Below, piece after piece: positions 1 through 48,688 of a DNA stretch of 49,196 nt. The notes beneath the pieces are model-generated. The model was given only the letters and a program-made list of their open reading frames with translations. It ran no database searches and was not told the DNA's origin. Numbering within the stretch: position 1 is the first letter of the stretch; every line of letters begins with the position of its first letter. Location of the stretch: positions 1-49,196 of the forward strand of contig JAJRTN010000125.1 of assembly GCA_024278275.1 (NCBI GenBank). Direction: 5' to 3'. Both the position numbers and the translations under genes were made by a program. Origin of the DNA: Candidatus Hydrogenedentota bacterium (GTDB lineage: Bacteria; Hydrogenedentota; Hydrogenedentia; Hydrogenedentales; JAJRTN01).

Positions 1-305
1 ACCTGGCACCAACGCTGGCGGATGATACTCACCGAGATTTTCGCCAAAATCCTCGGCGGAGAACCCCTGGCGAACCCCGATCCGCTGCCGGCGCCGACGT
101 AGCACGCGGTGCCGACCGGTTATTTCTTGACAGGTGCGACGCCCAAGAGGCCGCCGCACGGGCCGCTACTGCCTTTTCTAGGTTCAATTTTGCAAATGCC
201 TCTTCCCTATCCGTGCGGTTCCTCCTTCTCCAGCACCATTCCGTAATGGTAAGGCGGCAAGGCCACCAGGGCCGGGGGGAGCAGGCGAAACCCCGCGTTC
301 TCGGC

Positions 306-791
306 CTAGTTTCGGCATTGATCAGGGCGAGGCCGTATCGCCATCGACGGGCCGCGGGGTGTATTGGCATCATAATTCCAGTGCATGATCGCCACTTTTC
401 CTTCCGGTCGAAGCACGCGATACGCTTCCGCCAGAAGCGTGCCGGGCCGTTCGGCATGGAGGATATTGAAGAGCATGGCGTAATCGACACTGCCATCGGG
501 CAAGCCCGTTCCCTCGGCGACGAAGTCCCGCGGACATGTATTCACGTTCGAGAGGGATGCCGCTTTCGCCTTCGCCCGGACCGCGTCAATCATCTTGGGA
601 TCTATGTCCAGTGCATGAACGGAGCCCGCCACGATGCGTGCCGCAGGGATGGTGAATGTACCGTACCCGCAGCCAAAGTCGACCACATCCCTACAATCCG
701 GCGTCAGACCGAGTGCGGAAAGCACGGCCGGCGGATCAAAGAAACGGTTCCATGTGGCTTCGACGGGCATGCCGCTTTCCCGTGTTTTCAT
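306..791 (-). CDS. class I SAM-dependent methyltransferase
   Basis: The ORF contains the glycine-rich SAM-binding motif VVDFGCGYGTFT and a downstream acidic loop (ALDIDP). The start was moved to the internal ATG (MKTRESG) because the upstream part of the ORF is low-complexity. The stop codon is TAG. Confidence 0.6.
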   Translation of the reverse strand: MKTRESGMPVEATWNRFFDPPAVLSALGLTPDCRDVVDFGCGYGTFTIPAARIVAGSVHALDIDPKMIDAVRAKAKAASLSNVNTCPRDFVAEGTGLPDGSVDYAMLFNILHAERPGTLLAEAYRVLRPEGKVAIMHWNYDANTPRGPSMAIRPRPDQCRN

Positions 792-28725: not shown

Positions 28726-28757
28726 CCTCCTCGTGGGTGCGGCACGACCGTGCTCCT

Positions 28758-31619: not shown

Positions 31620-31790
31620 TTCACCTTGGCGGATCTGGCTTTCCCCGTTCATGCCCGGCCCCAGCGTGGCGGTATTCCAACATACCCATAGGGTTGTCGC
31701 GCCCTTCGATATCCGGTCCCGTCCGCGGAACTCGAAGCATTTCGAGTTCTCGGTGTGCATGCGTATCGGAACGGACATGACGGCAAATCC

Positions 31791-35342: not shown

Positions 35343-35498
35343 CGATTGTAACCCCGAAGGGATTTGCTGTCCTTAACAGAAGGGCCAAAAACTAGCACCA
35401 CGAGGTCAAGTGCTCCTGCGTCGGGCGGCAATAAACGGATCCGCCTGTTGGGCGAAGACGGAGCTCCCGGCGTGAGGGCGGTGGAGGAATGCGTAGCG

Positions 35499-36422
35499 AT
35501 GCGTGTTGATGCGACCCCCTTGTCCGGAGGGGGGCAGGCTTTTGTCCCGCACTCCGGCTTACGTCTTCATGGGGCGATGCGGTGTGTTGAAGCCGGAGAA
35601 ATCGGGGAACATGAGCACCCGTTTGGTGAACTGGTCCTGGTCCGCCAGGGGCGGGGAGTCCATCGTGTGCGGGGCTGGGAATACCCGCTTGGCCCGGGGG
35701 ATGTTTTCTACGTTCCCGTTGGTCACGCCCATGCGTACCCGGATGTGGACGAATTGCACGTGATGATTTTCGATTTTGATCCGGCCATCTACCTTCACCA
35801 GGTCCAGGAACTCACCCTGATGCCTGGCGCCCTCGGGCTGTTCGGGCCGGACTGGCCCCCCAATCTTTTGTATCATGGGCAAAAGTCTGTTTTTTGCGTC
35901 CATTTACAGGGTGAGGCGTGGGCGCAAGCGGAGAGCCTGGCCGAGTCGCTGTTAAGGTCCTGCGAGCATGATTCGCCGGAAAGACACACGGAGGTTCGTG
36001 CGTGGTTCGCCTTGCTGATCGTTTGTCTTTGCCGTTATTACCCGGAGCACGTATTGCCCACGGGCACCCGGAATGTACCGTTGGCGAAAGCATTGGCCTA
36101 CATCGAGGACCATTACGCCGACGCTCTGACCCTTGACGCGCTGTCCGGCGCGGCCTGTACGTCCCGAAGCTCGCTGCAGCGGGCCTTTCGGAAGCACCTG
36201 GCCTGCACGCCCATGGAATACGTCATGCGCCGCCGAATCGACCGCGCGCGGGAACTGCTTCTCTTTACGGACATGAGCATGACGGCCATTGGGGAAAGCA
36301 CGGGTTTTACCGACAGCAATCATTTTTCCCGGTGTTTTCGACGGTACGCCGGGGAGTCTCCCAGGATGTACCGGAACAAGAACCATGCCTTGGGTCCGGG
36401 TGTCCCCATTAACGATATGTAA
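35499..36422 (+). CDS. AraC-family transcriptional regulator (cupin N-domain plus HTH)
   Basis: Cupin motifs are present (HEHPFGELVLVRQGRG, YVPVGHAHAY). The two C-terminal HTH units read LTLDALSGAACTSRSSLQRAFRK and MTAIGESTGFTDSNHFSRCFRRYAGESP. The start is uncertain; the ORF opens at the TTG at 35364. Confidence 0.7.
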   Translation: MRVDATPLSGGGQAFVPHSGLRLHGAMRCVEAGEIGEHEHPFGELVLVRQGRGVHRVRGWEYPLGPGDVFYVPVGHAHAYPDVDELHVMIFDFDPAIYLHQVQELTLMPGALGLFGPDWPPNLLYHGQKSVFCVHLQGEAWAQAESLAESLLRSCEHDSPERHTEVRAWFALLIVCLCRYYPEHVLPTGTRNVPLAKALAYIEDHYADALTLDALSGAACTSRSSLQRAFRKHLACTPMEYVMRRRIDRARELLLFTDMSMTAIGESTGFTDSNHFSRCFRRYAGESPRMYRNKNHALGPGVPINDM

Positions 36423-36488
36423 AAAAATTCCAGGAGTATATTGCATAATGGTATTTCTTTATGCTACGCTGTCATCCATAAAGGGGCC

Positions 36489-37361
36489 CATATGAACGCT
36501 TCAGCCAACACGAAGGATTTGAACGGAAACTGCCTGGCCCGGCTTCGCGCCTGGACGAAACAGGGCAAGGGTTCCGTGCCGGCGATTGCCGCTTTTGTGC
36601 TGGAAAACCCCGAGCAGGCCCTGAACGTGACCATCAATGAATTCGCCTTGCGATCCAAGGCCGCCGTATCGTCGGTTTCCCGTTTTTGCACCACCATCGG
36701 CTATTCGGGTTACAAGGAGTTTCAACTGGATCTTGCCGCCTCGCTTGCCCAACAGCCGCCGTCCCTGGGGGTTTTCGATGCCCATGCCGCCCCCCATGAC
36801 ATCATGCACTATGTTTTTGAATGCAACCGGCGCAGCATCCGGGAAACGGAGAAGCTGATCAGCCGGGAAGTCTTTGTCGAAGTGGCCCGGTTGATCCATG
36901 AATCGCACCGGGTGTATGTGCTTGGCGTGGGCGCTTCGGGGCTGGTGGCCCGGCAGGCGGCCACGCGCTTCATGAGCCTGGGGCTCACGGCATCGGCGTT
37001 GACGGACCCCTATCTCCAGGTATTCGTGACGGAAAACCTGGGGAAAAGCGATGTCGTCATCGGCGTGAGTCACACCGGCTTGACCCGTTCGGTGGTGGAG
37101 AGCGTCGAGGCGGCGCGTACGTGCGCGGCGAGGGCGGTGGCTATTACGAACTACCCGCAATCATCCCTGGCCAAGGCCTGTGACTTTGTGCTGACGACCT
37201 CGTTCGAGTAGCGACGCGCCAACGCGGCGGTGTCCTCCTCGCATATTGCCCAACTGTGCCTGATCGATGCGCTGTACTTCGTCGTGGGAAGTTGGCGATC
37301 CCGTGGCGCCACCGCGTTGGCGGAGCTTGCCGAGAAGCGGGTGCAACGATTGCTTCGCTGA
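36489..37361 (+). pseudogene. RpiR/MurR-family regulator (HTH_6 + SIS domain) interrupted by an in-frame TAG at 37209-37211
   Basis: N-terminal HTH_6 reads INEFALRSKAAVSSVSRFCTTIGYSGYKEFQ. The SIS domain reads VYVLGVGASGLVARQAA...VVIGVSHTGLTRSVVESVEAARTCAARAVAITN. After TTSFE-TAG the same frame continues for 49 codons, encoding the expected SIS C-terminus (SSHIAQLCLIDALYFVV...). Read-through would give a 290-aa protein. Confidence 0.6.
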
Positions 37362-37396
37362 GCCATTCCGACAAAAACAAGGAAGGAAGAAGTTCC

Positions 37397-38746
37397 ATGT
37401 ACAAACGCTACTATGACCCCAACATTTTCCTCAACATGCTGGACGGAATAGATCTCGACAATCACGTGATCGCGTCCTATTACATGAAGGACCGCCTGGA
37501 GGGAATCAAGTTCCTCGACCACTTCTCGCTTGTTCAGGCCATGGGTCTGGAGGGCTCGACCGGCACCTGGGAAAAGGTGGCGGAGGATACGGATGAGTTG
37601 CGCGCCGCCATGTCCAGCCGCATGGTGGGGTATCACGAGATCCCCGGGGAAGATGAATACACGAAGGCGGCCGTGGTCCAACTGGCCTTCCCCATCCGCG
37701 CCTGGGGCGACAACCTGCCCATGATGCTCCTGGCCGTGGCGGGCAACTGCTTCGCCTACTCCAAGAACCTCATCATGACGGATATATTCATCGGTAAGAA
37801 CCTGCTGAAAAAGTTCCAGGGGCCGAAGTTCGGGGTGCCGGGCGTGCGGGAATTGACGGGGGTCAAGGAACGTCCGCTCTCGCTGCACATCATCAAGCCG
37901 AAGATGGGCATGACCCCCGAGCAGACGGCCAACCAGGTCTACCAGACCGCCCTGGGGGGCGCCGACATGTGCAAGGACGACGAGATGCTCGCCGACGCCT
38001 ACAACAGCACGGCGGAACAGCGCGTGCCCGTCATCATGGACGCCATCAACCGGGCGGCCGACAAGATGGGCAAGAAAATGATCTACCTGTGCAGCATCAC
38101 CGATGAAAGCGACAAGATGGTCGCCAAGGCGAAACGGGCCATCGAACTGGGCGCAAACGGCCTGCTGGTGGCCTATTCGGCCGGTCTGCCCGCGTTGCGG
38201 CGCCTCACGTCGGACCCCGATATCACGGTTCCGGTCATGCTGCACGCTTCCCACATGATCGCCATGATGAAGCAGATGGCCTGGCCCGTGCTGGCCAAGT
38301 TGTGTCGCCTCTGCGGGGCGGACCTGATGCTGACGCCCACCTACTGGTCCTCCATCCCCATGGTGTCCATGGAAGAGGGGTTGCGGACTTCTTTCATGCA
38401 GCTCGCCCCCTGGGGGTATATCAAGCCGACTTTCCCCATGCCCTGTGCGGGCGTCTATCCCGGCCTGGCGCCCATCATCATCGGCGAATACGGCACGGAC
38501 ATTGTCATCCCCGCGGGCGGCGGCATGTTGGGCCACCCCGACGGGTACACGGCGGGCGCGAAATCCTGGCAACAGGCCATTGCCGGCGCGCTGTCGGAAG
38601 ACGACTTCATCGAGTTTGCGAAGAAACCCGAAAATGGCGAGTTGCGCCGCGCCATCGAGCATTGGGGTTACATCGAGCGTCCCAAGGCGCCGTGGCTGCG
38701 GGTGGCTCCCGAGTTCCATCCCAAGCCCATGAAGTTTGATGATTGA
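37397..38746 (+). CDS. RuBisCO large-subunit-like protein (form IV RLP)
   Basis: A strong Shine-Dalgarno sequence (AGGAAGGAAG) precedes the start. RuBisCO large-chain motifs are present: IKPKMGMTPEQ (cf. IKPKLGLS, Lys175) and GGADMCKDDEML (cf. GGLDFTKDDE, the carbamylated Lys201 position). The protein is 449 aa and lies 35 nt downstream of RpiR. Confidence 0.85.
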   Translation: MYKRYYDPNIFLNMLDGIDLDNHVIASYYMKDRLEGIKFLDHFSLVQAMGLEGSTGTWEKVAEDTDELRAAMSSRMVGYHEIPGEDEYTKAAVVQLAFPIRAWGDNLPMMLLAVAGNCFAYSKNLIMTDIFIGKNLLKKFQGPKFGVPGVRELTGVKERPLSLHIIKPKMGMTPEQTANQVYQTALGGADMCKDDEMLADAYNSTAEQRVPVIMDAINRAADKMGKKMIYLCSITDESDKMVAKAKRAIELGANGLLVAYSAGLPALRRLTSDPDITVPVMLHASHMIAMMKQMAWPVLAKLCRLCGADLMLTPTYWSSIPMVSMEEGLRTSFMQLAPWGYIKPTFPMPCAGVYPGLAPIIIGEYGTDIVIPAGGGMLGHPDGYTAGAKSWQQAIAGALSEDDFIEFAKKPENGELRRAIEHWGYIERPKAPWLRVAPEFHPKPMKFDD

Positions 38747-39298
38747 ATCCGGCACGGCCGACCATCGTTTTTTTGACGACCCAAAAGTGCGGCAGGAAAA
38801 GCGGTAACCGTTTACGGCATCCCGCGCCCGCCCTTGGACAATGGGGCCGGTTGGGACCGATAGAGGGAGGATAGAGCTTTGTTTTCTTATGTGACGCTGT
38901 GGAGTCCGTAGGACTTCAATGGAAAAGCGCCGCGGCGCAGACCGCCGTATTATGCTGAAATGACGGTGTTCGCCGTGACATTGGATGGCTTGAGGCCTAC
39001 CGGCCTCACAGCCGAGGGCGGCTGTGCCACATTCAAGTGAAGACTGCGCCGTGAACAGTTACGCTTTCACGGGGATAACGATCCTGGTGATGTTGCCGGT
39101 AACGTTCTTGGCGCACGGCTTCGCGGGTCACGTGACAATTCAGGCGAGACGCCCGCGATAGTCTCTTACCAGTACATTTCTTTACAAATAGGCACGAAAA
39201 GGTGATTGCATCTTTTCCTTGGCCCCAGGGTTCTCCGTGGAGACAAAAACCTGGTTCCGGCTTGGCCGGGTTAGGCGTTCCCGCGGGGGACCGTGGGA

Positions 39299-40801
39299 AT
39301 GAGGAAGAAAAGGGCTGACGCAAAAGTGAAGCGGTATCTCGCATTTGACCTGGGCGCCGAAAGCGGGCGTTGCATGTTGGGCCAACTTGACGGCGGCACG
39401 TTGGAAATCACGGAATTGCTCCGTTTCCCCAACGGTCCGGTCAACGTGAACGGCACCCTCTATTGGGATATCCTCGGCATCTACAAGAATATGCTGGAGG
39501 GGTTGTCCCTCTTCGCGCGGCGGTACGGACCGGAAGCCGATGGCATCGGCGTGGATAGCTGGGCCCTGGACTTCGGCCTCCTGGACAAGCAGGACAACCT
39601 TTTACAGAATCCCGTTTGCTACCGGGACGGGCGCACCGAGGGCATGGTGGAGGCGGTGTCGGCCACGGTGGAGCCCGGGGAAATTTTTCGTCGCACGGGC
39701 CTCAACGTGAACGCCATTCACACGTTGTTCCAACTGAAGGCCGTCGCCGAACGCAGCCCGGAGGTGCTCGAACGGACGGCTTGCCTGCTCAACATCCCCA
39801 GTTTGCTGGCCTGCTTCCTGTGCGGGGCGAAGGTGGCGGAGCACACCCTCGCGGGGACCACGCAACTCTACGATCCCCGCACCCGCGCATGGGACGCCGA
39901 ACTGCTGGGAATGCTCGATCTGCCGGTGGAGATTCTTCCGGAGATCGTGGAACCCGGCACGCTCTTGGGTGAATTGAGCGAGGCGGCGAAGGCCGCCACC
40001 GGCCTGACGCATGCGCCCGTTTTTGCCACCTGCACACACGACACGGCGGCGGCCGTGGCCTCGGTGCCGGGGGAGGGCGAGGATTGGGCGTTTATCAGTT
40101 CTGGCACGTGGTCGGTCTTCGGCACGCTCTCGGCCGAAGTGATCACGTCGGACCGTGCCCGCGCGGCGGGCGTGTGCAACGAGCCGGCATTCGGCGGAAA
40201 CTTCGTCTGCAAGAACCTGATGGGCCTGTGGCTGCTTCAACAGGCGCGGGCCTCATGGCGGCGCCAGGGGAAGGAACTCTCCTACGGGGAACTCGCGGCG
40301 GCGGCGTGGGAAGCACCCAAAGGGGGGCCGCTGGTATCGGTGGCGCACCCCGGTTTCCTCGTCCCGTCCGACATGGTGGAAGAGATTCAGCGCTTCTGCC
40401 GGGCCACCGGACAGACCGCGCCGGATTCCGTGCCCGAGGTAACCCGCTGCATTCTTGAGAGCCTGGCGCTCTGCTATCGGCAAAGCCTGGAGGATTTGAG
40501 GGCTGTCACGGGAAAAAGTATCAACCGGATTCACGTGGTGGGTGGCGGTTCACTCAACCAACCCCTGTGCCGGTTTACCGCGGCGGCTTGTGGCGTACCC
40601 GTGGCCGCGGGCCCGAAGCAGGCCACCGCCGCGGGGAACCTGCTGACCCAGGCCGCCGCCGAACTGGGCGGTCCGGAGGGAATCCGGTCCGTCGTAAAAA
40701 ACTCATTCCCCCTGAAAACATACGGGCCGGTCGATGACGACGGGTACTGGAAGAAGCGTTACGAAACGTATCTGCGAATCGAAGCATCGGGGCTTTCCTG
40801 A
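39299..40801 (+). CDS. rhaB: FGGY-family sugar kinase, best match rhamnulokinase
   Basis: Conserved blocks resemble E. coli RhaB (comparison from memory): AFDLGAESGRCML, GVDSWALDFGLLD, YRDGRTEG, NLMGLWLLQ, CILESLALCY and IHVVGGGSLN. The start is at the internal ATG, not the GTG at 39293. Confidence 0.75.
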   Translation: MRKKRADAKVKRYLAFDLGAESGRCMLGQLDGGTLEITELLRFPNGPVNVNGTLYWDILGIYKNMLEGLSLFARRYGPEADGIGVDSWALDFGLLDKQDNLLQNPVCYRDGRTEGMVEAVSATVEPGEIFRRTGLNVNAIHTLFQLKAVAERSPEVLERTACLLNIPSLLACFLCGAKVAEHTLAGTTQLYDPRTRAWDAELLGMLDLPVEILPEIVEPGTLLGELSEAAKAATGLTHAPVFATCTHDTAAAVASVPGEGEDWAFISSGTWSVFGTLSAEVITSDRARAAGVCNEPAFGGNFVCKNLMGLWLLQQARASWRRQGKELSYGELAAAAWEAPKGGPLVSVAHPGFLVPSDMVEEIQRFCRATGQTAPDSVPEVTRCILESLALCYRQSLEDLRAVTGKSINRIHVVGGGSLNQPLCRFTAAACGVPVAAGPKQATAAGNLLTQAAAELGGPEGIRSVVKNSFPLKTYGPVDDDGYWKKRYETYLRIEASGLS

Positions 40802-40816
40802 ACGGAGGACCAAGCC

Positions 40817-41797
40817 ATGTTGAAGGACTACTACTTTGGCGCCTGTCTGCCGACCTTTGGCAACTGCGCGGACCGCTATTGCCAAGGCGGCTACAAGCGT
40901 GATTTCACGATGGACGAGATGCTGGACCGCTCGCTGGAAGTGGGCAGCATCGACGGGCTGGAGTTGGTGGGCAACTGGCATGTCAACGATGGGAATGTGC
41001 GCGAAGTGGCGCAAAAGTTCAGGGACAGAAACCTGAAGATCCCCATGCTGGTGCCCGATCTCTGGACACAGGCGAAATGGGGCAAGGGCAGCCTCGCGGC
41101 GTCGGACGCCGCGACCCGGCAGGCCGCCATCGACGAAGTGCGGAAGGTCATGGACTGGGCCGCCGAACTCGATTGTCCCTACGTGGATGTCTGGCCGGGG
41201 CAGGATGGCTTCGACTACCCCTTCCAGGCGGACTACGTTTCGGCCTGGTCGTGGCTGCGTGAGGGCATCGCCGCGTGCGCGGGCCACAACGACCAGGTGA
41301 AGGTGCTGGTGGAGTACAAGCTCAAGGAGCCCCGCCGTCACTGCTTTATCGACAGCGCGGCGCGGACGCTGATGCTCCTGGACGGCATCGATAACACGGG
41401 GGTGCTCCTGGACGTGGGTCATGCCATGGCGGCGGGAGAAAACATCGCGGAGGCCGTGGCATTTCTGAACGCCTACGGCAAGCTGGATTACCTGCACCTG
41501 AACGACAACTACCGCGCCTGGGACGACGACATGATTTTCGGTTCGGTGAATCTCATCGAGGATCTGGAATTGCTGTACTGGCTCAAGCGTGTCGGGTACC
41601 AGGGCTGGCTCACCCTCGACATCTTTCCCTTCCGCATCGACGGTGTCGATGCGGCGAAGGCGTGTCAAAGCTGGATAGACGGCCTGCTCAACGCGCTGGA
41701 GAAGGTTGGCCAGGCGTCTTTTGACGTGGCCGTGGCCTCGGGTGATCCCGTGCAGGCGGGCGTCATTATCCGGGAAGCGCTTGGACTGGGCCGGTAG
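40817..41797 (+). CDS. sugar (phosphate) isomerase/epimerase, xylose-isomerase-like TIM barrel
   Basis: The protein is 326 aa with a pattern of acidic and His metal ligands typical of AP-endonuclease-2 / xylose-isomerase-like TIM barrels (VLVEYKLKEP, LLDVGH, LHLNDN). The stop is TAG. Confidence 0.65.
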   Translation: MLKDYYFGACLPTFGNCADRYCQGGYKRDFTMDEMLDRSLEVGSIDGLELVGNWHVNDGNVREVAQKFRDRNLKIPMLVPDLWTQAKWGKGSLAASDAATRQAAIDEVRKVMDWAAELDCPYVDVWPGQDGFDYPFQADYVSAWSWLREGIAACAGHNDQVKVLVEYKLKEPRRHCFIDSAARTLMLLDGIDNTGVLLDVGHAMAAGENIAEAVAFLNAYGKLDYLHLNDNYRAWDDDMIFGSVNLIEDLELLYWLKRVGYQGWLTLDIFPFRIDGVDAAKACQSWIDGLLNALEKVGQASFDVAVASGDPVQAGVIIREALGLGR

Positions 41798-41818
41798 GCG
41801 GAAGGGGATTATCGAATC

Positions 41819-42076
41819 ATGGCGACAGCAATCAAGATCCCGGACATGGGAACCACCGTGGACACCATGGTCCTGGAGACCTGGCTTGTCGAGGAAGGTG
41901 AAACCATCGACCGCGGCGACGTGATCGCCGAGATCCAGACCGACAAGGCCCTCACGGACCTGGAGTCTTTCGCGCGCGGCACGTTACTGAAGAAAATGGT
42001 GACCGAAGGCGCCGAGGTTCAGGTGGGGGACGTGATCGCCTACCTGGGAGAACCCGGCGAGGAAATCCCCGGATGA
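41819..42076 (+). CDS. stand-alone lipoyl-attachment domain protein (E2-type lipoyl carrier, 85 aa)
   Basis: The lipoyl-lysine motif is AEIQTDKALTDLES, within a biotinyl/lipoyl hybrid-barrel pattern (IKIPDMG...GETIDRGDVIAEI). No E2 catalytic domain follows. It is in the same reading frame as the upstream isomerase, separated by TAG plus 7 codons. Confidence 0.75.
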   Translation: MATAIKIPDMGTTVDTMVLETWLVEEGETIDRGDVIAEIQTDKALTDLESFARGTLLKKMVTEGAEVQVGDVIAYLGEPGEEIPG

Positions 42077-42096
42077 CCCCGGGAAAGGAAGAATAC

Positions 42097-43062
42097 ATGC
42101 CGTCGAAGTATGAGCCGACTTTTCTGCTGGACCTGTACCGGAAGATGGTCCTCATCCGGCAGTTCGAGGACCGGGTGAAGTTCCTCTTTCTGGAGGGCAT
42201 CATGCCGGGCACCATCCACCAGTACCAGGGACAGGAGGCGATAGCCGCGGGGGTTTGCGCCGCGCTGAATACTGACGACATCATCACCAGCACCCACCGT
42301 CCCCATGGCCACGCGCTGGCGAAGGGCCTTAGCGCCGAATCGCTGCTGCACGAGCTTTTCGGGAAACCTTCCGGGTGTTGTTGTGGCAAGGGGGGCTCCA
42401 TGCACGTGGGCGACCTGGAAAAGGGGATGCTGCCCGCCATTGCCATCGTGGGCGGAGGCGTGCCCATCGCCACGGGCTGCGCCCTGGCCTTCAAGATGCG
42501 CGGCGAAAAACGGGTGGCGGTCAGCTTTTCGGGCGACGGCGCCGTGAACGAGGGCGCCTTCCACGAGGGCGTCAACATGGGCGCCATCTGGGATCTCCCC
42601 GTCATTTACGTCATCGAGAACAACCTGTATTCGGCCTCCACGCCCATCGCCGACACGGTGAAGCTTGAAAAGGTTTCCGACCGGGCCGCGGGCTACGGCA
42701 TACCGGGGGTCACGGTGGACGGCAACGATGTGGTCGCCATGTATGAAGCGGCGCGGGGCGCGGTGGAACGGGCACGCAACGGGGAGGGGCCCACCTTGAT
42801 CGAGGCTGTCACCTACCGCATCACGGGCCATTCCCGGCGAGACCCCTGCAACTATCAGCCCAAGGAGCAGCGCCGGGAGGCCAGGAAGCGGGAACCCATC
42901 AGGCGATTCGCCAGGTACCTGGTGGAGAAGGGGCTGGTCACCGAGGCCGAGCTGGACATGTTCCGCGAGGAGATTGACGCAGAGATCGAACGCGCCGTGG
43001 AATCCGCCCAGGCCGCGCCGGACCCGGCTCCCGAGTTCGCCCTGGAAGGGCTCTGGGCCTGA
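42097..43062 (+). CDS. TPP-dependent dehydrogenase E1 component, alpha subunit (AcoA/PdhA-like)
   Basis: The TPP-binding motif reads GDGAVNEGAFHEGVNMGAIWDLPVIYVIENN. The phosphorylation-loop-like region reads YRITGHSRRD. The start at 42097 has a strong Shine-Dalgarno sequence (GGAAAGGAAG). An alternative ATG at 42073 overlaps the upstream stop by 4 nt. Confidence 0.8.
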   Translation: MPSKYEPTFLLDLYRKMVLIRQFEDRVKFLFLEGIMPGTIHQYQGQEAIAAGVCAALNTDDIITSTHRPHGHALAKGLSAESLLHELFGKPSGCCCGKGGSMHVGDLEKGMLPAIAIVGGGVPIATGCALAFKMRGEKRVAVSFSGDGAVNEGAFHEGVNMGAIWDLPVIYVIENNLYSASTPIADTVKLEKVSDRAAGYGIPGVTVDGNDVVAMYEAARGAVERARNGEGPTLIEAVTYRITGHSRRDPCNYQPKEQRREARKREPIRRFARYLVEKGLVTEAELDMFREEIDAEIERAVESAQAAPDPAPEFALEGLWA

Positions 43063-43108
43063 GATCACCGGAACATTACGCGGATTACACGGGAAGAGAG
43101 GTACGGAA

Positions 43109-44125
43109 TTGGCACGATTGAGCATTGCCGAAGCGCTCCGACAGACGCTTCGTGAAGAAATGAACCGGGACGAGCGGGTTTTCTGCATCGGGGAAGACAT
43201 CGCCATTCCCGGCGGCTGGGGCGGCGCTTTCACGGTGACACTGGGCCTGGAGGAGGATTTCAAGGACCGCATGATCAACACGCCCATCTCCGAAGCGGGC
43301 TTCACGGGCGTGGCCCTCGGCGCGGCGCTCATGGGGCTGCGTCCCGTGGCGGACGTGCAGTACGGGGACTTTCTCCTGTGCGCCATGGACCAGATGGTGA
43401 ACCAGGTCGCGAAGATGCGCTACATGTCCGGCGGCAAGATCAAGGTGCCCTTCGTCATGCGCGCGCCCACGGGGGCGACGGGCCGCGGCACGCAGCACGC
43501 GCAAAACCTGGAAAGCATGTTCTTGCAGGCGCCCGGATTCAAGATCGCCTGTCCCGCCACGGCCTACGATGCGGTGGGGCTTTTGCGTGCCGCCATCCGC
43601 GACGACAACCCGGTACTCCTTTTCGAGCACAAGCTGCTCTACGGCTCCAAGGGCGCCCGGGCCGAAACGGGCGCCATGGATGCGTCGAGCGAGATTCCCG
43701 AAGAGGATTACGTCGTGCCGCTGGGCAAGGGCATCGTGCGCCGCGAAGGGAGCGACATCACGGTGATCGCCCCGCTGCTCATGATGCACCGGGCCCTGGA
43801 GGCCGCGGAGATCCTGGCGGATGAAGGCGTATCGGTCGAAGTCATCGACCCGCGCAGTCTCGTGCCCTTCGATTGGGAACTGGTGGAAACCTCGGTGCGG
43901 AAGACCGGGCGCCTCGTGGTGGCCCAGGAAGGTCCCTTGCGCGGAGGGCTGTGCGGCGACATTGCCGCCGAGATGGGCGAACGCTGCTTTGATGCGCTCA
44001 AGGCCCCCGTGCTCCGGGTGGCCTCGCCGGACATCCCCGCGCCCTTCGCCCCGGCGATGGAGGCCTTCTACCGCCCTGACGCGGCGCGGATCGTGGATGC
44101 GGTCCGGAAAACCGTAAAGGATTGA
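43109..44125 (+). CDS. TPP-dependent dehydrogenase E1 component, beta subunit (transketolase-like Pyr and C domains)
   Basis: A TTG start is inferred from the conserved N-terminus (ARLSIAEALRQTLREEMNRDERVFCIGEDI). Further motifs are GFTGVALGAALMGLRPV and MRAPTGATGRG. Confidence 0.75.
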   Translation: MARLSIAEALRQTLREEMNRDERVFCIGEDIAIPGGWGGAFTVTLGLEEDFKDRMINTPISEAGFTGVALGAALMGLRPVADVQYGDFLLCAMDQMVNQVAKMRYMSGGKIKVPFVMRAPTGATGRGTQHAQNLESMFLQAPGFKIACPATAYDAVGLLRAAIRDDNPVLLFEHKLLYGSKGARAETGAMDASSEIPEEDYVVPLGKGIVRREGSDITVIAPLLMMHRALEAAEILADEGVSVEVIDPRSLVPFDWELVETSVRKTGRLVVAQEGPLRGGLCGDIAAEMGERCFDALKAPVLRVASPDIPAPFAPAMEAFYRPDAARIVDAVRKTVKD

Positions 44126-44135
44126 GGGGACAAGC

Positions 44136-44741
44136 ATGGCGGAACTGCGCAGCTATATCGTGATCGACAGTTTGCAGGAGCAGTTGGCGGCGTTCATGGC
44201 CTCCACGGTGGTAGGCTACATGCCCGTGGCGGGCATGGCGGCCCTTTTCGTGGAGGTGGCGCCCGGCATGGAGATCGTGCGCCTCCTCGACGTGGCCGTG
44301 AAGGCCACCAACACGCGGCCCGCCATCCAGGTGGTCGAGCGCAGCTTCGGCACCCTCGAAGTTCACTCCGAAAACCAGGGCGACGTTCGGCAGGCGGGCC
44401 GGGCCGTGCTCGACGCCATGGGGCTTACCGAGGCCGACCGGGACGAACCCCGGGTGGCCTCGTCCACGGTCATTCGGCACATCGATCCCTACCAGGCCGC
44501 GCTGATCAACAAGAGCCGGCAGGGGAGCATGTTGCTTGCGGGGCAGACGGTGTTCATACTGGAGACCCAGCCGGCGTTGTACGCCGTGCTGGCGGCCAAC
44601 TAGGCGGAAAAGGCAAGCCGCGTCACGTTGGTGGATATCCGCCCCTTCGGCAATTTCGGCCGGCTATACCTGGCCGGGGAAGAAGCGGACGTGGTCGTGG
44701 GAAGCGAGGCCGCCATCGCGGCCCTGGAAACATGCCGCTAG
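44136..44741 (+). pseudogene. tandem BMC-domain shell protein (BMC-T-like), reading frame interrupted by in-frame TAG at 44601-44603
   Basis: A GAGGGGA Shine-Dalgarno sequence precedes the start. The first, divergent BMC-like domain reads AALFVEVAPGMEIVRLLDVAVKATNTRPAIQVVERSFGTLEVHSENQGDVRQAGRAVLDAMG. After ...ILETQPALYAVLAAN-TAG the same frame continues AEKASRVTLVDIRPFGNFGRLYLAGEEADVVVGSEAAIAALE. This completes a canonical BMC fold (cf. [27 protein letters not shown]...[13 protein letters not shown]). As annotated to the first TAG the product is 155 aa; read-through would give 201 aa. Confidence 0.5.
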
Positions 44742-44777
44742 CGGTTCATTACGGATGGAAAACCGGGAGATCAGGTC

Positions 44778-45071
44778 ATGGCTGATGCGTTGGGTATGAT
44801 TGAATGCAAGGGATTCGCGGCGATGGTTGAGGCATCGGACGCGATGGTGAAGGCCGCCAAGGTGGAACTGGTGGGCTACGAGAAGATCGGCGGCGGCTAC
44901 GTGACGGCCATCGTGCGCGGCGACGTGGCCGCGGTCAAGGCGGCCTGCGAGGCGGGCGAACGGGGCGCTCGTGCCGTGGGCGAGGTCGTTTCGGTGCATA
45001 TCATCCCGCGGCCCCACGACAACGTGGATTCCGCACTCCCCCTGGGCCGCCCCCAGGCCGTCAAGAAATAG
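44778..45071 (+). CDS. BMC-H hexameric shell protein (PduA/EutM-like)
   Basis: The sequence [64 protein letters not shown]...VHIIPRPH is a textbook Pfam00936 match. The stop is TAG. Confidence 0.9.
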
Positions 45072-45114
45072 CGCCCCGGGCGACACACGCACGATCCCAT
45101 GGAGATAAAGCCCC

Positions 45115-45426
45115 ATGCAAATTGGACGCGTTATCGGGACGGTCGTCTCGACCGCGAAGGAACCGGCGCTGGAAGGCCGTAGATTCCTGCTGGTCCAGTT
45201 CCTCGACCTCGACGCACGAACAACTTCCTCCTACGTGGTGGCGGTGGATGCCGTCGGCGCGGGCACGGGCGAGGTGGTTCTCGTCGCCACGGGCAGTTCC
45301 GCGCGCCAGACGGAGACCACGAGCAATCGGCCTTGCGACGCGGTTGTCATGGCCATTATCGACTCGTGGGACGTCCATGACGAGGTGAAGTGGCGCAAGG
45401 CCGATGATACGCCGGGAGACGGGTGA
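45115..45426 (+). CDS. BMC-P vertex protein (EutN/CcmL/PduN family), copy 1
   Basis: The N-terminus is MQIGRVIGTVVSTAK. Further motifs are FLLVQ and VAVDAVGAGTGEVVLVATGSSAR. Confidence 0.85.
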   Translation: MQIGRVIGTVVSTAKEPALEGRRFLLVQFLDLDARTTSSYVVAVDAVGAGTGEVVLVATGSSARQTETTSNRPCDAVVMAIIDSWDVHDEVKWRKADDTPGDG

Positions 45427-46823
45427 TGCCTGTTTCTCCCAACGACATAGAGCAGGCCGTTCGTGAAGTCCTCAAGCGAATCGAGGGCGAAGGTGAAACC
45501 CCCGGCCCGGTGTCGTCTCCGGCGGTGGATGACGCGGTGGAACGCGCGCGCCGCGCCTACGACGCCTACTGCGGCATGGGCCTCAACAAGCGCCATGAGA
45601 TGGTCGCCGCCATGCGGGAAGCGGCCAAGGCCCATGTGAAGACCTTCGCTGCGGATGCCGTGCGCGAAACCGGGCTCGGGCGGGTCGAGGACAAGATCCG
45701 CAAGAACCTGCTGGTCATCGTGAAAACGCCCGGCCCGGAAATACTCACCCCCGCCGCGCAAACAGGCGACCATGGCTTGATGCTGACGGAGCGCGCCCCA
45801 CACGGGGTTATCGGATCCATCACCCCGTGTACCAATCCCACCGAAACGGTGATCAACAACGCCATCAGCATGGTGAGCGGCGGAAACGGCGTGGTCTTCA
45901 ACGCCCATCCCGCCGCGGCCAAGTGCTCACAGGAGTGCATCCGGGTGCTGTCGGAGGCCATCGTCGCCGCGGGCGGACCGCCCGACCTGGTCGTGGGCGT
46001 GGAACAGCCCACCATAGAGACCGCCAGGGCCCTCATGGGGAGTCCCGGCGTGGCCCTCCTGTGTGTTACCGGCGGCGCGGCCGTGGTGAAGGCCGCCATG
46101 CTGTCCGGCAAGAAAGTGGTCGCGGCCGGCCCCGGCAATCCGCCGGTCGTCGTCGATGAGACGGCGGACCTGGCGAAGGCCGCGCGCGCCACGGTCCAGG
46201 GCGCGTCCCTGGACAACAACATCATCTGCGTTTCCGAGAAGGAGGCGGTCGTGGTCGATGCCGTGGCCGATGCCTTCAAACGGCATATGATGGAGGAGGG
46301 CTGTGTCGAGGTCTCCGGTCGCGACCGCGACCGGCTCTGCGACCTGATCTTCGCGTCCCGCGACGGCAACCGGGGCGTAATGAACAAGGATCTGATCGGC
46401 AAGGACGCCAGTGTCATACTGGACCGGATAGGCATCCGCGCCGCGCCGGAAACGCGCCTTGTCATTATGGACGTTCCGGCGGATCATCCGCTCCCCTGGA
46501 CCGAGCAACTCATGCCGGTCTTCCCCATCGTTCGCGTTTCCGACGTGGACGCGGCCATTGGCCTGGCCCTTCGCTACGAGGGCGGCCGACGGCATACCGC
46601 CGTCATGCACTCGCGCAATATCGACAAACTCAGCAAGATGGCCCGCCTGGCCAACTGTTCCATTTACGTGAAGAACGGTTCGTCCCTGGCGGGGCTCGGC
46701 ATGGGGGGCGAAGGCTACACCTCTTTCACGATTGCCAGCCCCACCGGCGAGGGGCTCACCACCGCGGTGAGTTTCACCCGCCTGCGGCGATGCACCCTCG
46801 TGGACGCCTTCAGGATCATATGA
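45426..46823 (+). CDS. CoA-acylating aldehyde dehydrogenase (PduP/EutE family) with N-terminal encapsulation-peptide-like helix
   Basis: The start overlaps the BMC-P stop (GTGATG). The N-terminal amphipathic segment DIEQAVREVLKRIEG is followed by a Gly/Pro-rich linker. The catalytic Cys region reads DNNIICVSEKE, and EGYTSFTIASPTGEG is also present. Confidence 0.85.
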   Translation: MPVSPNDIEQAVREVLKRIEGEGETPGPVSSPAVDDAVERARRAYDAYCGMGLNKRHEMVAAMREAAKAHVKTFAADAVRETGLGRVEDKIRKNLLVIVKTPGPEILTPAAQTGDHGLMLTERAPHGVIGSITPCTNPTETVINNAISMVSGGNGVVFNAHPAAAKCSQECIRVLSEAIVAAGGPPDLVVGVEQPTIETARALMGSPGVALLCVTGGAAVVKAAMLSGKKVVAAGPGNPPVVVDETADLAKAARATVQGASLDNNIICVSEKEAVVVDAVADAFKRHMMEEGCVEVSGRDRDRLCDLIFASRDGNRGVMNKDLIGKDASVILDRIGIRAAPETRLVIMDVPADHPLPWTEQLMPVFPIVRVSDVDAAIGLALRYEGGRRHTAVMHSRNIDKLSKMARLANCSIYVKNGSSLAGLGMGGEGYTSFTIASPTGEGLTTAVSFTRLRRCTLVDAFRII

Positions 46824-47386
46824 TGAGCATTCTCGGCCTCATGGAATTCGACGGCATCACGCCGGGCATGATCGCCACTGACGCCATGGTCAAGCGGGCG
46901 CCGGTGACCGTGTTGGAAACCGGCCCCATCGACCCGGGAAAGTACCTTACGGTCCTCACCGGCGACCTGGCCTGTGTCGAGGAGGCCGTCGCCGCGGGCG
47001 ATGAAAGCGGCGGCGCGCACGTGGTGCGTGGCGTCGTTCTCGCGAACCTGCACGACGGCGTGATCCCCGCGCTGAAGGGCGAGGCCCCCGACCCGGAACC
47101 GGGCGCCGTGGGCATCGTGGAGACCTCGGACACCGTGGCCGCCGTCCATGCCGCCGACGCCGCCTGCAAAGCCGCCCCGGTGGCGTTGATTACGTTGCAC
47201 CTCGCCCGTCACATCGGCGGCAAGGGCTACCTGGTGATGGTGGGCGTTCTCGCCGATGTCGAAGCGTCGGAACAGGCCGCGCGGGAGGCGGCCGCACGGT
47301 CCCTCGTGGATTCCACCGTCATCCCGCAGCCCGACGAAGCGTTCTTCGCGCGCTTGTTGCGGCCGGCGCCGTTCCGGAGGCTGTGA
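46820..47386 (+). CDS. BMC-T tandem-domain shell protein, PduT-like
   Basis: An ATGA overlap links it to the aldehyde dehydrogenase. Domain 1 reads ILGLMEFDGITPGMIATDAMVKRAPVTVLETGPIDPGKYLTVLTGDLACVEEAV. Domain 2 reads AVGIVETSDTVAAVHAADAACKAAPVALITLHLARHIGGKGYLVMVGVLADVEASEQAA. Confidence 0.75.
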   Translation: MMSILGLMEFDGITPGMIATDAMVKRAPVTVLETGPIDPGKYLTVLTGDLACVEEAVAAGDESGGAHVVRGVVLANLHDGVIPALKGEAPDPEPGAVGIVETSDTVAAVHAADAACKAAPVALITLHLARHIGGKGYLVMVGVLADVEASEQAAREAAARSLVDSTVIPQPDEAFFARLLRPAPFRRL

Positions 47387-47670
47387 AACCGGTGATTCCC
47401 GCGCGCGTCATAGGCAGACTCGTTCCGGCCGCCACGCTGGCGGCCTTCAAGGGCGTTCCCTTTCTCATCGTGCAACCGGTGGACGAACACCTCCAGGACC
47501 GCGGCGCTCCGAAAGTGGCCTGCGACGCCATCGGGGCCAACGTGGGCGAAGTGGTGTTCATGGCACAGGGCGGCGAGGCGACCTTTCCGCTTCCGGAGCC
47601 CTTCAACCCCTCGGACACCACCATCGTGGCCATCGTGGACGAAGTCACCCCGGCCGGAGAAACGTCATGA
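47383..47670 (+). CDS. BMC-P vertex protein (EutN/CcmL family), copy 2
   Basis: A GTG start overlaps the BMC-T stop (GTGA). Motifs are IPARVIGRLVPAAT, FLIVQPV and VACDAIGANVGEVVFMAQGGEA. Confidence 0.75.
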   Translation: MKPVIPARVIGRLVPAATLAAFKGVPFLIVQPVDEHLQDRGAPKVACDAIGANVGEVVFMAQGGEATFPLPEPFNPSDTTIVAIVDEVTPAGETS

Positions 47671-47939
47671 AACTGGCGCGCGTTCTCGCACAAGTTGTGG
47701 CCACCCGGAAGCACCCCTTCTATCACGGACGCAAGACCTTCATGGTGCGGACACTCGACCTGGAGGGAAAGGAGACCGGGCCCGCCTTTGTCGCCGTGGA
47801 CCGCGTCCAGGCGGGCGTGGGCGACCGCGTGTTGCTCATGCAGGACGGCGGGTCCGCACGTATCATGTTCGACGCGCCCGAGGGGCCGGTGCGGAGCACC
47901 ATCGTGGGCATCGTGGATGCCGTGGAGATGACAGAATGA
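47667..47939 (+). CDS. BMC-P vertex protein (EutN/CcmL family), copy 3
   Basis: An ATGA overlap links it to copy 2. Motifs are MKLARVLAQVVATRK, FMVRTLD and VAVDRVQAGVGDRVLLMQDGGSAR. Confidence 0.8.
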   Translation: MKLARVLAQVVATRKHPFYHGRKTFMVRTLDLEGKETGPAFVAVDRVQAGVGDRVLLMQDGGSARIMFDAPEGPVRSTIVGIVDAVEMTE

Positions 47940-48688
47940 CGGAACTGGAACAGCGAAAAGCGGTCTGCGATGTAGGCCGCCGACTCTATGAGAAAAACCT
48001 CGCCCTCGCGACGGACGGAAACATCAGCATCCGCCTCGGACCCGACCGCTATCTCTGCACGCCCAGCGGCGTGCCCAAGGGATTCATGAAACCGAATGAC
48101 CTGCTCGTCGCGGACGGCGCGGGCCGCAAATTGTCGGGCGCGGGCAAGGTCACGAGCGAGTTCAACACCCACCTCGTGTGTTACCGCGAACGGCCCGACA
48201 TTCATGCCGTGGTCCATGCCCATCCTCCCAAGGCCATCGGGCTCAGCATCGCGGAAATCGATCTGACCGAACTCGTCCTCCCCGAGGTGGTTTACACCAT
48301 CGGCGGAATCCCCACCTCCGGCTACGCCACGCCGGGCACCACGGAAGGGGGCGAAGCCATCGTGGACCTCATCCGGCAGTGCGACGCGGTCATGCTCGAC
48401 CGGCATGGCGCGGTCACCGTGGGACAGGATGTGTACGATGCCCTCTTCAAGATGGAGAAAGTGGAAACGGCGGCCGAGTCTCTGCTCATCGCACACCTCC
48501 TGGGCAATGTGCGAAGCCTGGACCGGCAACAGGTGGAAAAGCTCGAAGCCGTTCGCGAGGCCTACAACCCCCATGGCAGGGCCTACACCGAGGCCGGCGC
48601 CGAGGACGCCCTCGCTCCGGGCGCGGCGAACACCCCCGAGCTGGACCGCATCATCGCGGAAACATTGCAGACCCTGGGCTTGGCCTGA
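47936..48688 (+). CDS. class II aldolase/adducin-family protein (rhamnulose-1-P / fuculose-1-P aldolase-like)
   Basis: An ATGA overlap links it to BMC-P copy 3. The metal-binding His cluster reads HAVVHAHPP...HG. The phosphate-binding N-terminal region reads GNISIRL...TPSG. Confidence 0.8.
   Translation: MTELEQRKAVCDVGRRLYEKNLALATDGNISIRLGPDRYLCTPSGVPKGFMKPNDLLVADGAGRKLSGAGKVTSEFNTHLVCYRERPDIHAVVHAHPPKAIGLSIAEIDLTELVLPEVVYTIGGIPTSGYATPGTTEGGEAIVDLIRQCDAVMLDRHGAVTVGQDVYDALFKMEKVETAAESLLIAHLLGNVRSLDRQQVEKLEAVREAYNPHGRAYTEAGAEDALAPGAANTPELDRIIAETLQTLGLA

What the first reader, a model, noticed from the sequence alone, without database searches (positions are those of the whole stretch)
36489..44741. 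Two amber-interrupted genes in one locus although TAG is a normal terminator nearby
TAG is a genuine stop for at least five neighbouring genes: the methyltransferase at 306, the BNR protein at 3683, the lipoprotein at 11069 (followed by a terminator), the isomerase at 41797 and BMC-H at 45071. Global amber reassignment is therefore unlikely. Two regulatory/structural genes of the same operon system nonetheless carry internal TAGs, and in both the downstream in-frame sequence continues the conserved domain. In addition the isomerase stop TAG at 41795-41797 is in the same frame as the lipoyl-carrier ORF, 7 codons downstream. This is either incipient decay of the locus, low-quality sequence, or context-dependent read-through, which would yield fusion or extended products.
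Basis: partly seen in the sequence, partly recalled or inferred. Interest (0 to 1): 0.5.

Follow-up and report, generated by a model that had tools for sequence, protein, structure and literature searches.

The report
Three premature amber codons, not recoding
Three genes on this metagenome contig each carry one premature TAG made by a single base change from the sense codon kept in relatives; they look like young nonsense mutations or consensus errors, not an altered genetic code or programmed read-through.

Summary
Both reported in-frame TAGs are real: rpiR at 37209-37211 and a BMC-T(dp) shell gene at 44601-44603. Conserved domain sequence continues behind each. A third exists. About 190-200-aa homologues run 32 residues further.

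Each TAG is one G:C>A:T or G:C>T:A change from the codon in the nearest relatives: GAG, GAG and TGG. The sites are conserved Glu, Glu and Trp, so no single amino acid fits a recoding.

TAG ends eight genes. Three of them stop at the same protein length as their orthologues, two have complete Pfam domains, one is followed by a hairpin terminator, and one by TAA. The premature TAGs share their flanking bases with genuine terminators. No RNA structure follows the two TAGs that were folded, and no tRNA gene lies in the window.

The contig has no frameshifts and no internal TGA or TAA. It shows no excess of lineage-specific or radical amino-acid changes, and dS far exceeds dN downstream of the stops.

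Best reading: very recent nonsense alleles, or damage-type consensus errors, in one MAG. About 8% of genes are hit, against about 1% in comparable MAG loci. Read data are needed to separate the two. Interest is low.

The parts
36492..37361 (+). RpiR/MurR-family regulator gene (HTH_6 + SIS), 289 codons, interrupted at codon 240
   Evidence: All full-length homologues are 286-300 aa. The window's own gene call is a 256-aa truncation (P0027).
37209..37211 (+). Premature TAG no. 1. The ancestral codon was GAG (Glu), changed by G>T at codon position 1.
   Evidence: L051 has GAG and L001 has GAA. Glu is present in all 25 aligned RpiR loci. It is one of only 16 of 288 columns that are invariant.
44136..44741 (+). 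BMC-T(dp), a CsoS1D-like tandem-domain shell protein gene of 201 codons, interrupted at codon 156
   Evidence: The L051 orthologue is an intact 201-aa protein (CsoS1D_N + BMC) and ends at the same TAG.
44601..44603 (+). Premature TAG no. 2. The ancestral codon was GAG (Glu), changed by G>T at codon position 1. The change creates CTAG.
   Evidence: L051 has GAG and L001 has GAA. The motif is 'ANEAEK', with Glu in about 85% of intact distant homologues.
207..791 (-). Class I SAM-dependent methyltransferase gene of 194 codons, interrupted at codon 162
   Evidence: There are 4746 homologues, the best of them 190-200 aa, covering 97% of the read-through product. The window's own gene call is 161 aa (P0113).
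306..308 (-). The ancestral codon was TGG (Trp), changed by G>A at codon position 2. The change creates CTAG.
   Evidence: Trp is invariant in 17 of 17 homologues. The nearest relative, L054, has TGG.
41795..41797 (+). Genuine TAG terminator of the xylose-isomerase-like TIM-barrel gene. It has the same 3' context (GCGGAA) as premature TAG no. 2.
   Evidence: The protein is 326 aa in both the window and L051. The spacer to the lipoyl gene is 21 nt here but 182 nt and out of frame in L051.
44739..44741 (+). Genuine TAG terminator of BMC-T(dp)
   Evidence: L051 has TAG at the same position. BMC-H is in frame downstream here but not in L051.
45069..45071 (+). Genuine TAG terminator of BMC-H
   Evidence: The protein is 97 aa in both the window and L051. 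The coding signal stops here.
35496..48688 (+). Operon-like locus: AraC, RpiR, RuBisCO-like protein, FGGY kinase, TIM-barrel isomerase, lipoyl carrier, E1 alpha/beta, BMC-T(dp), BMC-H, BMC-P, aldehyde dehydrogenase, BMC-T, 2x BMC-P, class II aldolase
   Evidence: Pfam scans and synteny with L051.

Best explanation
The three TAGs are ordinary, evolutionarily very young nonsense alleles carried by the strain or population behind this single MAG contig, probably a member of Hydrogenedentiales.

Each arose by one G:C>T:A or G:C>A:T point mutation: GAG>TAG in rpiR, GAG>TAG in the BMC-T(dp) shell gene, and TGG>TAG in a SAM-methyltransferase.

Inferred consequences:
- The ribosome terminates at these TAGs as it does at the eight genuine TAG stops.
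- RpiR then lacks the last 49 residues of its SIS domain.
- BMC-T keeps only about 15 residues of its C-terminal BMC domain.
- The methyltransferase lacks its last 32 residues. All three are probably loss-of-function products.
- Loss of RpiR would deregulate the RLP/kinase/BMC locus. Loss of BMC-T(dp) would remove the shell protein thought to form a gated pore.

Shown here: the codons, their ancestry, their recency, and the normal use of TAG as a stop. Inferred: termination at the internal TAGs, and the loss of function.
For: - Each TAG differs by a single nucleotide from the sense codon in the nearest relatives.
- The TAG is absent from every relative, so it arose on the terminal branch.
- Downstream segments show 23 synonymous against 4 non-synonymous codon differences in rpiR, and 16 against 3 in BMC-T. 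These ratios match the upstream parts. There are no window-derived amino-acid changes downstream, so the stops are very recent.
- TAG is a working terminator: stop usage is TGA 23, TAG 8, TAA 6, and the TAG stops were checked.
- All three events run in the GC>AT direction, which (from general knowledge, not tested here) is the usual bias of new bacterial mutations.
- All three genes are accessory genes.
- Comparable single nonsense codons occur in other MAG loci. One example is GGA>TGA at a conserved Gly in the E1-beta gene of L008.
- PMC7918605 reports that in-frame stops are widespread and short-lived polymorphisms in bacteria.
Against: - Three nonsense hits in about 39 genes is roughly 7-fold above the background measured in comparable loci (p about 0.01).
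- There are no accompanying frameshifts and no radical missense changes. All three stops are TAG, which has a chance of about 0.1-0.13.
- All three stops sit at strongly conserved residues.
- Two of them create the same 8-mer, AACTAGGC, in a contig where CTAG is 4-fold depleted.
- No read data and no second genome of the species were available, so real alleles cannot be told from consensus errors.
Confidence: 0.5

Rival explanations
1. The three TAGs are isolated consensus or sequencing errors of the DNA-damage type (8-oxoG G>T twice, deamination C>T once) in a low-coverage MAG. The organism really has GAG, GAG and TGG.
For: - G>T and C>T are the two classical damage-artefact classes (general knowledge, not tested here).
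- The downstream sequence is perfectly preserved.
- The stops hit conserved, functionally important residues, as random errors would without selection.
- One stop lies 306 nt from a contig end.
- The species is seen only once in all collections, so nothing corroborates the alleles.
- A load of about 30 young GC>AT changes per 43 kb is not excluded. My rough joint likelihood for it is about 0.05.
Against: - Only about 2-6% of random substitutions make a stop. Three stops therefore imply tens of other errors.
- The window lineage shows no excess of derived changes: 699 against 709 nucleotide changes and 103 against 114 amino-acid changes. G:C>T:A changes are fewer than in L051, 46 against 84.
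- The 16 other single-step GC>AT replacements are almost all conservative.
- There is no excess of private changes at 336 invariant columns.
- There are no indels or frameshifts in about 43 kb of coding sequence.
Confidence: 0.33
2. TAG termination is leaky genome-wide in this organism, through an acquired amber-suppressor tRNA or weak RF1. Amber mutations are then partly tolerated, accumulate preferentially over other disruptions, and full-length proteins are still made.
For: - Only TAG is found internally, never TGA or TAA, and there are no frameshifts.
- The rate is about 7-fold above the MAG background.
- Downstream parts remain under apparent purifying selection.
- Two of the three sites are conserved Glu.
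Against: - The sites are Glu, Glu and Trp, so no single inserted amino acid restores them.
- Tolerated suppression should favour variable positions, not conserved ones.
- TAG is not depleted as a terminator: it ends 8 of 37 genes, and most have no backup stop close behind (distances of 28 to 253 codons; only one has an immediate TAA).
- Read-through would fuse isomerase with lipoyl carrier and BMC-T with BMC-H.
- Relatives show no TAGs in the same genes.
- No tRNA gene lies in the window.
Confidence: 0.08
3. The TAGs are gene-specific, programmed read-through signals. They would act as a regulatory device, giving a truncated and a full-length RpiR or BMC-T, or an isomerase-lipoyl fusion.
For: - In-frame conserved sequence lies downstream of each TAG.
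- Two of the three are in one operon.
- PMC7918605 argues that in-frame stops may lower expression.
Against: - The TAG is not conserved in any orthologue: L051, L001, L025, L054, 25 RpiR loci and the aligned methyltransferase homologues all carry a sense codon.
- The contexts are the same as at genuine terminators: AAC TAG GC and TAG GCG GAA.
- Folding energies downstream of the two locus TAGs are not unusual, with z-scores of +1.08 and -0.21.
- The isomerase/lipoyl and BMC-T/BMC-H frames and spacers differ in L051.
Confidence: 0.03
4. TAG is reassigned to a sense codon (to Glu, Gln or pyrrolysine, for example) in this lineage.
For: Two of the three TAGs align with conserved Glu.
Against: - The third TAG aligns with an invariant Trp.
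- Eight genes end in TAG at verified ends.
- Only 3 of 14,374 in-frame codons are TAG.
- None of the three genes is a methylamine methyltransferase, and no pyl genes were seen among the domains identified in the window.
Confidence: 0.01

Closest known systems
Nonsense-mutation pseudogenes and transient in-frame stop polymorphisms in bacterial genomes (surveyed in Belinky et al. 2021, PMC7918605)
   Same: Each is a single-nucleotide derived stop inside an otherwise intact, conserved accessory gene. Each is restricted to one genome. The flanking sequence still carries the signature of purifying selection.
   Different: The density is unusually high for one contig: 3 of about 39 genes. All three stops are TAG, there are no frameshifts, and the hits fall on strongly conserved residues.
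Amber-codon reassignment: code-15-type TAG-recoded phages, pyrrolysine decoding, and TAG>Glu in some protists
   Same: In-frame TAGs are followed by conserved coding sequence. Two of them sit at Glu positions.
   Different: TAG remains a frequent and verified terminator. The in-frame TAGs are very rare and align with two different amino acids. No suppressor tRNA lies in the window, and none of the relatives carries them.
Programmed stop-codon read-through (MuLV gag-pol or TMV type; bacterial leaky-stop cases)
   Same: A stop codon is followed by an in-frame functional domain.
   Different: The stop is not conserved in orthologues. There is no special 3' context or downstream structure. The same contexts serve genuine terminators in the same operon.
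Damage-type sequencing artefacts (8-oxoG G>T, cytosine deamination C>T)
   Same: The substitution classes match exactly: G>T, G>T, and C>T on the + strand.
   Different: Such artefacts are normally sub-consensus. They would come with many missense errors, which were not detected here.

Membership tests
Stop-codon (TAG) reassignment | TAG is no longer used, or only rarely used, as a terminator | tested here: not met
   Eight of 37 censused genes end in TAG. Three of them have the same protein length as their L051 orthologues. Two have complete Pfam profiles. One is followed by a 15-bp hairpin and a T-run. One is followed directly by TAA.
Stop-codon (TAG) reassignment | In-frame TAGs align consistently with one amino acid in orthologues | tested here: not met
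   The three sites are Glu in rpiR (25 of 25 loci), Glu in BMC-T (about 85%) and Trp in the methyltransferase (17 of 17).
Stop-codon (TAG) reassignment | A cognate tRNA(CUA) is present and RF1 is lost or altered | not testable with these tools
   No tRNA gene lies in the 49-kb window. The rest of the genome is not available.
Programmed read-through | The stop codon is conserved at the orthologous position in related genomes | tested here: not met
   L051 has GAG at both locus sites, L001 has GAA at both, and L054 has TGG. No homologue carries a stop there.
Programmed read-through | A distinct 3' context or a stimulatory RNA structure | tested here: not met
   The +4 bases C, G and G are the same as at genuine TAG stops. 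TAG GCG GAA is shared with the isomerase terminator. Folding z-scores downstream of the two locus TAGs are +1.08 and -0.21; the methyltransferase TAG was not folded.
Programmed read-through | The downstream in-frame segment is under purifying selection | tested here: inconclusive
   dS far exceeds dN downstream (23:4 and 16:3). This is equally expected if the stops are very recent.
Recent nonsense pseudogene | The stop is derived by a single substitution from the sense codon of close relatives and is limited to one lineage | tested here: met
   GAG>TAG twice and TGG>TAG once.
Recent nonsense pseudogene | The truncated product lacks part of an essential domain | tested here: met
   The SIS profile runs to residue 262 but the stop is at 240. 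The BMC profile covers 141-197 but the stop is at 156. The methyltransferase loses its conserved 'WAE..GF...PPYHYG' tail.
Recent nonsense pseudogene | The allele really exists in the organism's DNA and is not a consensus error | not testable with these tools
   No reads are available. No second sequence of the species was found among 15 billion proteins; the nearest are 77-78% identical for RpiR and the methyltransferase.
Pyrrolysine decoding | TAG lies in methylamine methyltransferase genes and pylTSBCD is present | tested here: not met
   The interrupted genes are rpiR, a BMC shell gene and a class I SAM-methyltransferase. No pyl genes appeared among the Pfam hits in the window.

The most novel reading that the evidence does not exclude
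The genome tolerates amber codons because TAG is partly decoded. A recently acquired suppressor tRNA could do this, for instance a Glu-inserting tRNA(CUA), which would restore two of the three sites. Inefficient RF1 termination could do it too. In that case in-frame TAGs would be scattered through several percent of its genes while TAG still ends other genes. This would be a free-living bacterium caught at an early, ambiguous stage of stop-codon capture.
Probability: 0.05. Interest if true: 0.75.

Novelty: already known. Interest (0 to 1): 0.15.

Why it matters
As it stands this is mainly a data-quality and annotation point. Three genes of this MAG should be annotated as interrupted or pseudogenes, including the presumed regulator and one shell protein of a microcompartment locus. 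Their truncated gene calls already sit in protein databases as cluster representatives (P0025, P0027, P0113).

It would matter more if reads confirmed the alleles and a genome-wide census showed TAG-only interruptions at this density. That would point to ambiguous amber decoding in a free-living bacterium, a proposed but rarely observed intermediate in codon reassignment.

Tried and rejected
- Exact-protein look-ups to find the source contig or same-species copies. The window is a whole 49,196-bp NCBI contig, and its proteins are singletons. The only close relative, L051, is about 80% identical in DNA.
- Homology searches with the read-through RpiR and methyltransferase to find the same species. 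The best hits are only 77-78% identical, so no independent check of the alleles was possible.
- TAG = Glu. This was suggested by the first two sites and rejected when the third site proved to be an invariant Trp.
- A general error or mutator burst. I tested it with private changes at invariant columns, a three-taxon relative-rate test with spectrum, and the BLOSUM class of single-step GC>AT changes. No excess appeared, but a small load of about 30 changes per 43 kb cannot be excluded.
- A methylation-motif or shared-context explanation. Sites 2 and 3 share AACTAGGC and both create CTAG, but site 1 (GAGTAGCG) does not. The mutated base sits at different positions of any common motif.
- TadA-type A-to-I mRNA editing. 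From my own knowledge it needs a UACG context, which none of the three sites has.
- RNA structure downstream, Rfam families and tRNA genes: nothing found.
- Other candidate interruptions: in-frame neighbouring ORFs such as 14016/13254, 26389/24475, 31791/28758, 4904/3683, and sigma/anti-sigma/2992. All are separate genes with their own starts or signal peptides.
- Literature on amber decoding in Hydrogenedentota. The only lead is a 4-bp anticodon-stem tRNA-Trp(CCA) reported for the phylum. It concerns UGA, not UAG.

Full report
**The observation**

The window is one complete 49,196-bp NCBI contig. It has about 61% G+C and no N. It most likely comes from a Hydrogenedentiales MAG. Its BMC-H protein clusters with Hydrogenedentota proteins. 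The nearest relative of its methyltransferase/SET gene pair sits on a contig labelled Hydrogenedentiales JAEUWI01.

Both reported in-frame TAGs exist.
- The first is in an RpiR/MurR regulator gene (ATG 36492, TAG 37209-37211, final TGA 37359-37361).
- The second is in a 201-codon BMC-T(dp) shell gene (44136-44741, TAG 44601-44603, final TAG 44739-44741).

In the read-through products the Pfam SIS match (residues 135-262) and the BMC match (141-197) both span the stops. tblastn alignments to 25 RpiR loci and to the BMC-T genes of L001 and L025 run through the stops without a break.

**A third case**

I translated past every TAG 'terminator'. The next 32 in-frame codons read AENAGFRLLPPALVALPPYHYGMVLEK.
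- The search returned 4746 homologues. The best of them are 190-200 aa and cover 97% of the read-through product.
- The TAG aligns with a Trp that is invariant in 17 of 17 aligned homologues.
- The nearest relative has TGG at that position.

A six-frame scan with TAG read as sense found no further interruption. A check of every in-frame continuation after TGA, TAA and TAG stops found none either. The other in-frame ORF neighbours are separate genes. No gene has an internal TGA or TAA. Pfam coverage of the genes that were scanned is full-length, so no frameshifts were seen.

**Ancestry of the stops**

The closest relative of the locus is L051, an ENA/JGI metagenome contig of about 80% DNA identity with the same gene order. 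It has GAG at both locus sites, and L001 has GAA. The three events are therefore GAG>TAG, GAG>TAG and TGG>TAG. Each is a single change in the G:C>A:T or G:C>T:A direction, and all three lie on the terminal branch.

The sites are strongly conserved.
- The RpiR Glu is one of only 16 of 288 columns that are invariant.
- The BMC-T Glu is kept in about 85% of distant intact homologues.
- The methyltransferase Trp is invariant.

**TAG is a normal stop**

Stop usage in 37 censused genes is TGA 23, TAG 8 and TAA 6. The TAG ends were checked as follows.
- Isomerase, BMC-T and BMC-H give the same protein lengths as their L051 orthologues.
- The BNR_2 and Thiamine_BP proteins have complete Pfam profiles.
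- The PKD protein is followed by a 15-bp hairpin and a T-run.
- The GH3/LysM gene ends in TAG TAA.

The premature TAGs have the same neighbours as genuine terminators. Their +4 bases are C, G and G, against C, C, C, C, G, G and T for the seven genuine TAG stops I tabulated. 'TAG GCG GAA' follows both the internal BMC-T TAG and the genuine isomerase stop. Folding energies downstream of the two locus TAGs are unremarkable (z = +1.08 and -0.21). The window holds no tRNA gene and no Rfam element.

The in-frame arrangements isomerase/lipoyl carrier and BMC-T/BMC-H are not preserved in L051. There the spacers differ in length and phase. They are the coincidences expected one time in three.

**Recoding and programmed read-through**

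Glu, Glu and Trp cannot be served by one inserted amino acid. TAG is not avoided as a terminator, and no orthologue carries a stop at any of the three sites. Reassignment and programmed read-through therefore each fail their defining tests.

A generic suppressor would favour TAGs at variable positions, not conserved ones. It would also extend or fuse eight normally terminated proteins. The 4-bp anticodon-stem tRNA-Trp(CCA) reported as universal in Hydrogenedentota concerns UGA, not UAG (PMC13092985).

**Decay or poor sequence**

- In alignments of six locus genes (336 invariant columns), the window has about one private change per gene, like the other sequences. These changes are conservative.
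- In a three-taxon test with L001 as outgroup, the window and L051 lineages have 699 and 709 derived nucleotide changes and 103 and 114 derived amino-acid changes. G:C>T:A changes number 46 and 84.
- Single-step GC>AT replacements number 18 in the window and 23 in L051. Apart from the two stops, the window's are conservative.
- Downstream of the stops, synonymous changes far outnumber non-synonymous ones (23:4 and 16:3), as they do upstream (47:7 and 58:7). There are no window-derived replacements downstream.

The locus is therefore not decaying, the contig is not generally error-ridden, and the stops are very young.

Only 2-6% of substitutions create a stop. Three stops thus hint at a few tens of young, unfiltered GC>AT changes in the contig. 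By my rough calculation that load is compatible with the tests (joint likelihood about 0.05), but a much larger load is not.

**How unusual**

In 231 homologous gene instances (68,402 codons) from the other fetched MAG loci, I found about two true in-frame stops. One is GGA>TGA at a conserved Gly in the E1-beta gene of L008. That is about 1% of genes, against 3 of about 39 here (Poisson p about 0.01).

Such lesions are a known feature of bacterial and MAG data (PMC7918605). This contig is enriched for them but not qualitatively different.

One oddity remains unexplained. Two of the three stops create CTAG within the same 8-mer, AACTAGGC, in a contig where CTAG is 4-fold depleted (7 observed against 29 expected).

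**Verdict**

The TAGs are non-programmed point substitutions. Either they are real, very recent nonsense alleles in accessory genes, which I slightly favour, or they are damage-type consensus errors. Without reads or a second genome of the species the two cannot be separated. No closer relative than 77-78% protein identity (for RpiR and the methyltransferase) exists in the searched collections.

If the alleles are real, the inferred consequences are:
- loss of the RpiR regulator;
- loss of the BMC-T(dp) shell protein of a microcompartment locus that is joined to a RuBisCO-like-protein/E1/lipoyl sugar pathway;
- loss of a small methyltransferase.

A residual few-percent possibility is genome-wide leaky amber decoding. 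A whole-genome TAG census and a tRNA(CUA) search would settle it.

Noticed in passing
window 207-791 (-), TAG at 306-308: A third premature TAG (TGG>TAG at an invariant Trp) lies in a class I SAM-methyltransferase.
   Followed up: yes
window 37397-44125; loci L001-L050: A RuBisCO-like protein (form IV type, 60-86% identical across phyla) sits next to a xylose-isomerase-like TIM barrel, a free 85-aa lipoyl carrier and E1 alpha/beta. This arrangement holds in about 30-39 of the 50 MAG loci, which are labelled with many different phyla. No E2 catalytic domain was seen among the Pfam hits in the window locus. One literature search found no paper describing this cluster.
   Followed up: partly
window 44136-48688; L051, L001, L025: Only in the window and three relatives is that RLP cluster joined to a microcompartment locus. 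The locus has BMC-T(dp), BMC-H, a BMC-P triplet, a tandem BMC-T, an aldehyde dehydrogenase and a class II aldolase. It resembles the HO or PVM-like types of PMC8217296.
   Followed up: partly
whole window: The tetranucleotide CTAG is 4-fold under-represented: 7 observed against 29 expected from a second-order Markov model. Two of the seven copies are premature stops, both within AACTAGGC, and two are genuine stops.
   Followed up: partly
window 38747-39292: The gap between the RLP and kinase genes is 547 nt, against 199 nt in L051. It has no Rfam match and no convincing ORF.
   Followed up: no
window 26392-33983 (-): Three large consecutive genes of 776, 1006 and 730 aa have no Pfam match. Two of them show signal-peptide-like N-termini. 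They lie next to an ADP-ribosylglycohydrolase gene and a DUF1559 pseudopilin-like gene.
   Followed up: no
L008 (E1-beta gene), L019 (isomerase paralogue), L050 and L032: Other MAG loci also carry single in-frame stops, such as GGA>TGA at a conserved Gly in L008. The two MFD-labelled MAG loci show what look like frameshifted stretches. These served as a background rate.
   Followed up: partly
alignment (P0234, P0238, P0240, P0242, P0248 and others): Many database 'representative' BMC-T(dp) proteins have scrambled C-termini after about residue 150, which suggests frameshifted metagenome gene calls. The truncated products of this window (P0025, P0027, P0113) are themselves cluster representatives.
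   Followed up: no
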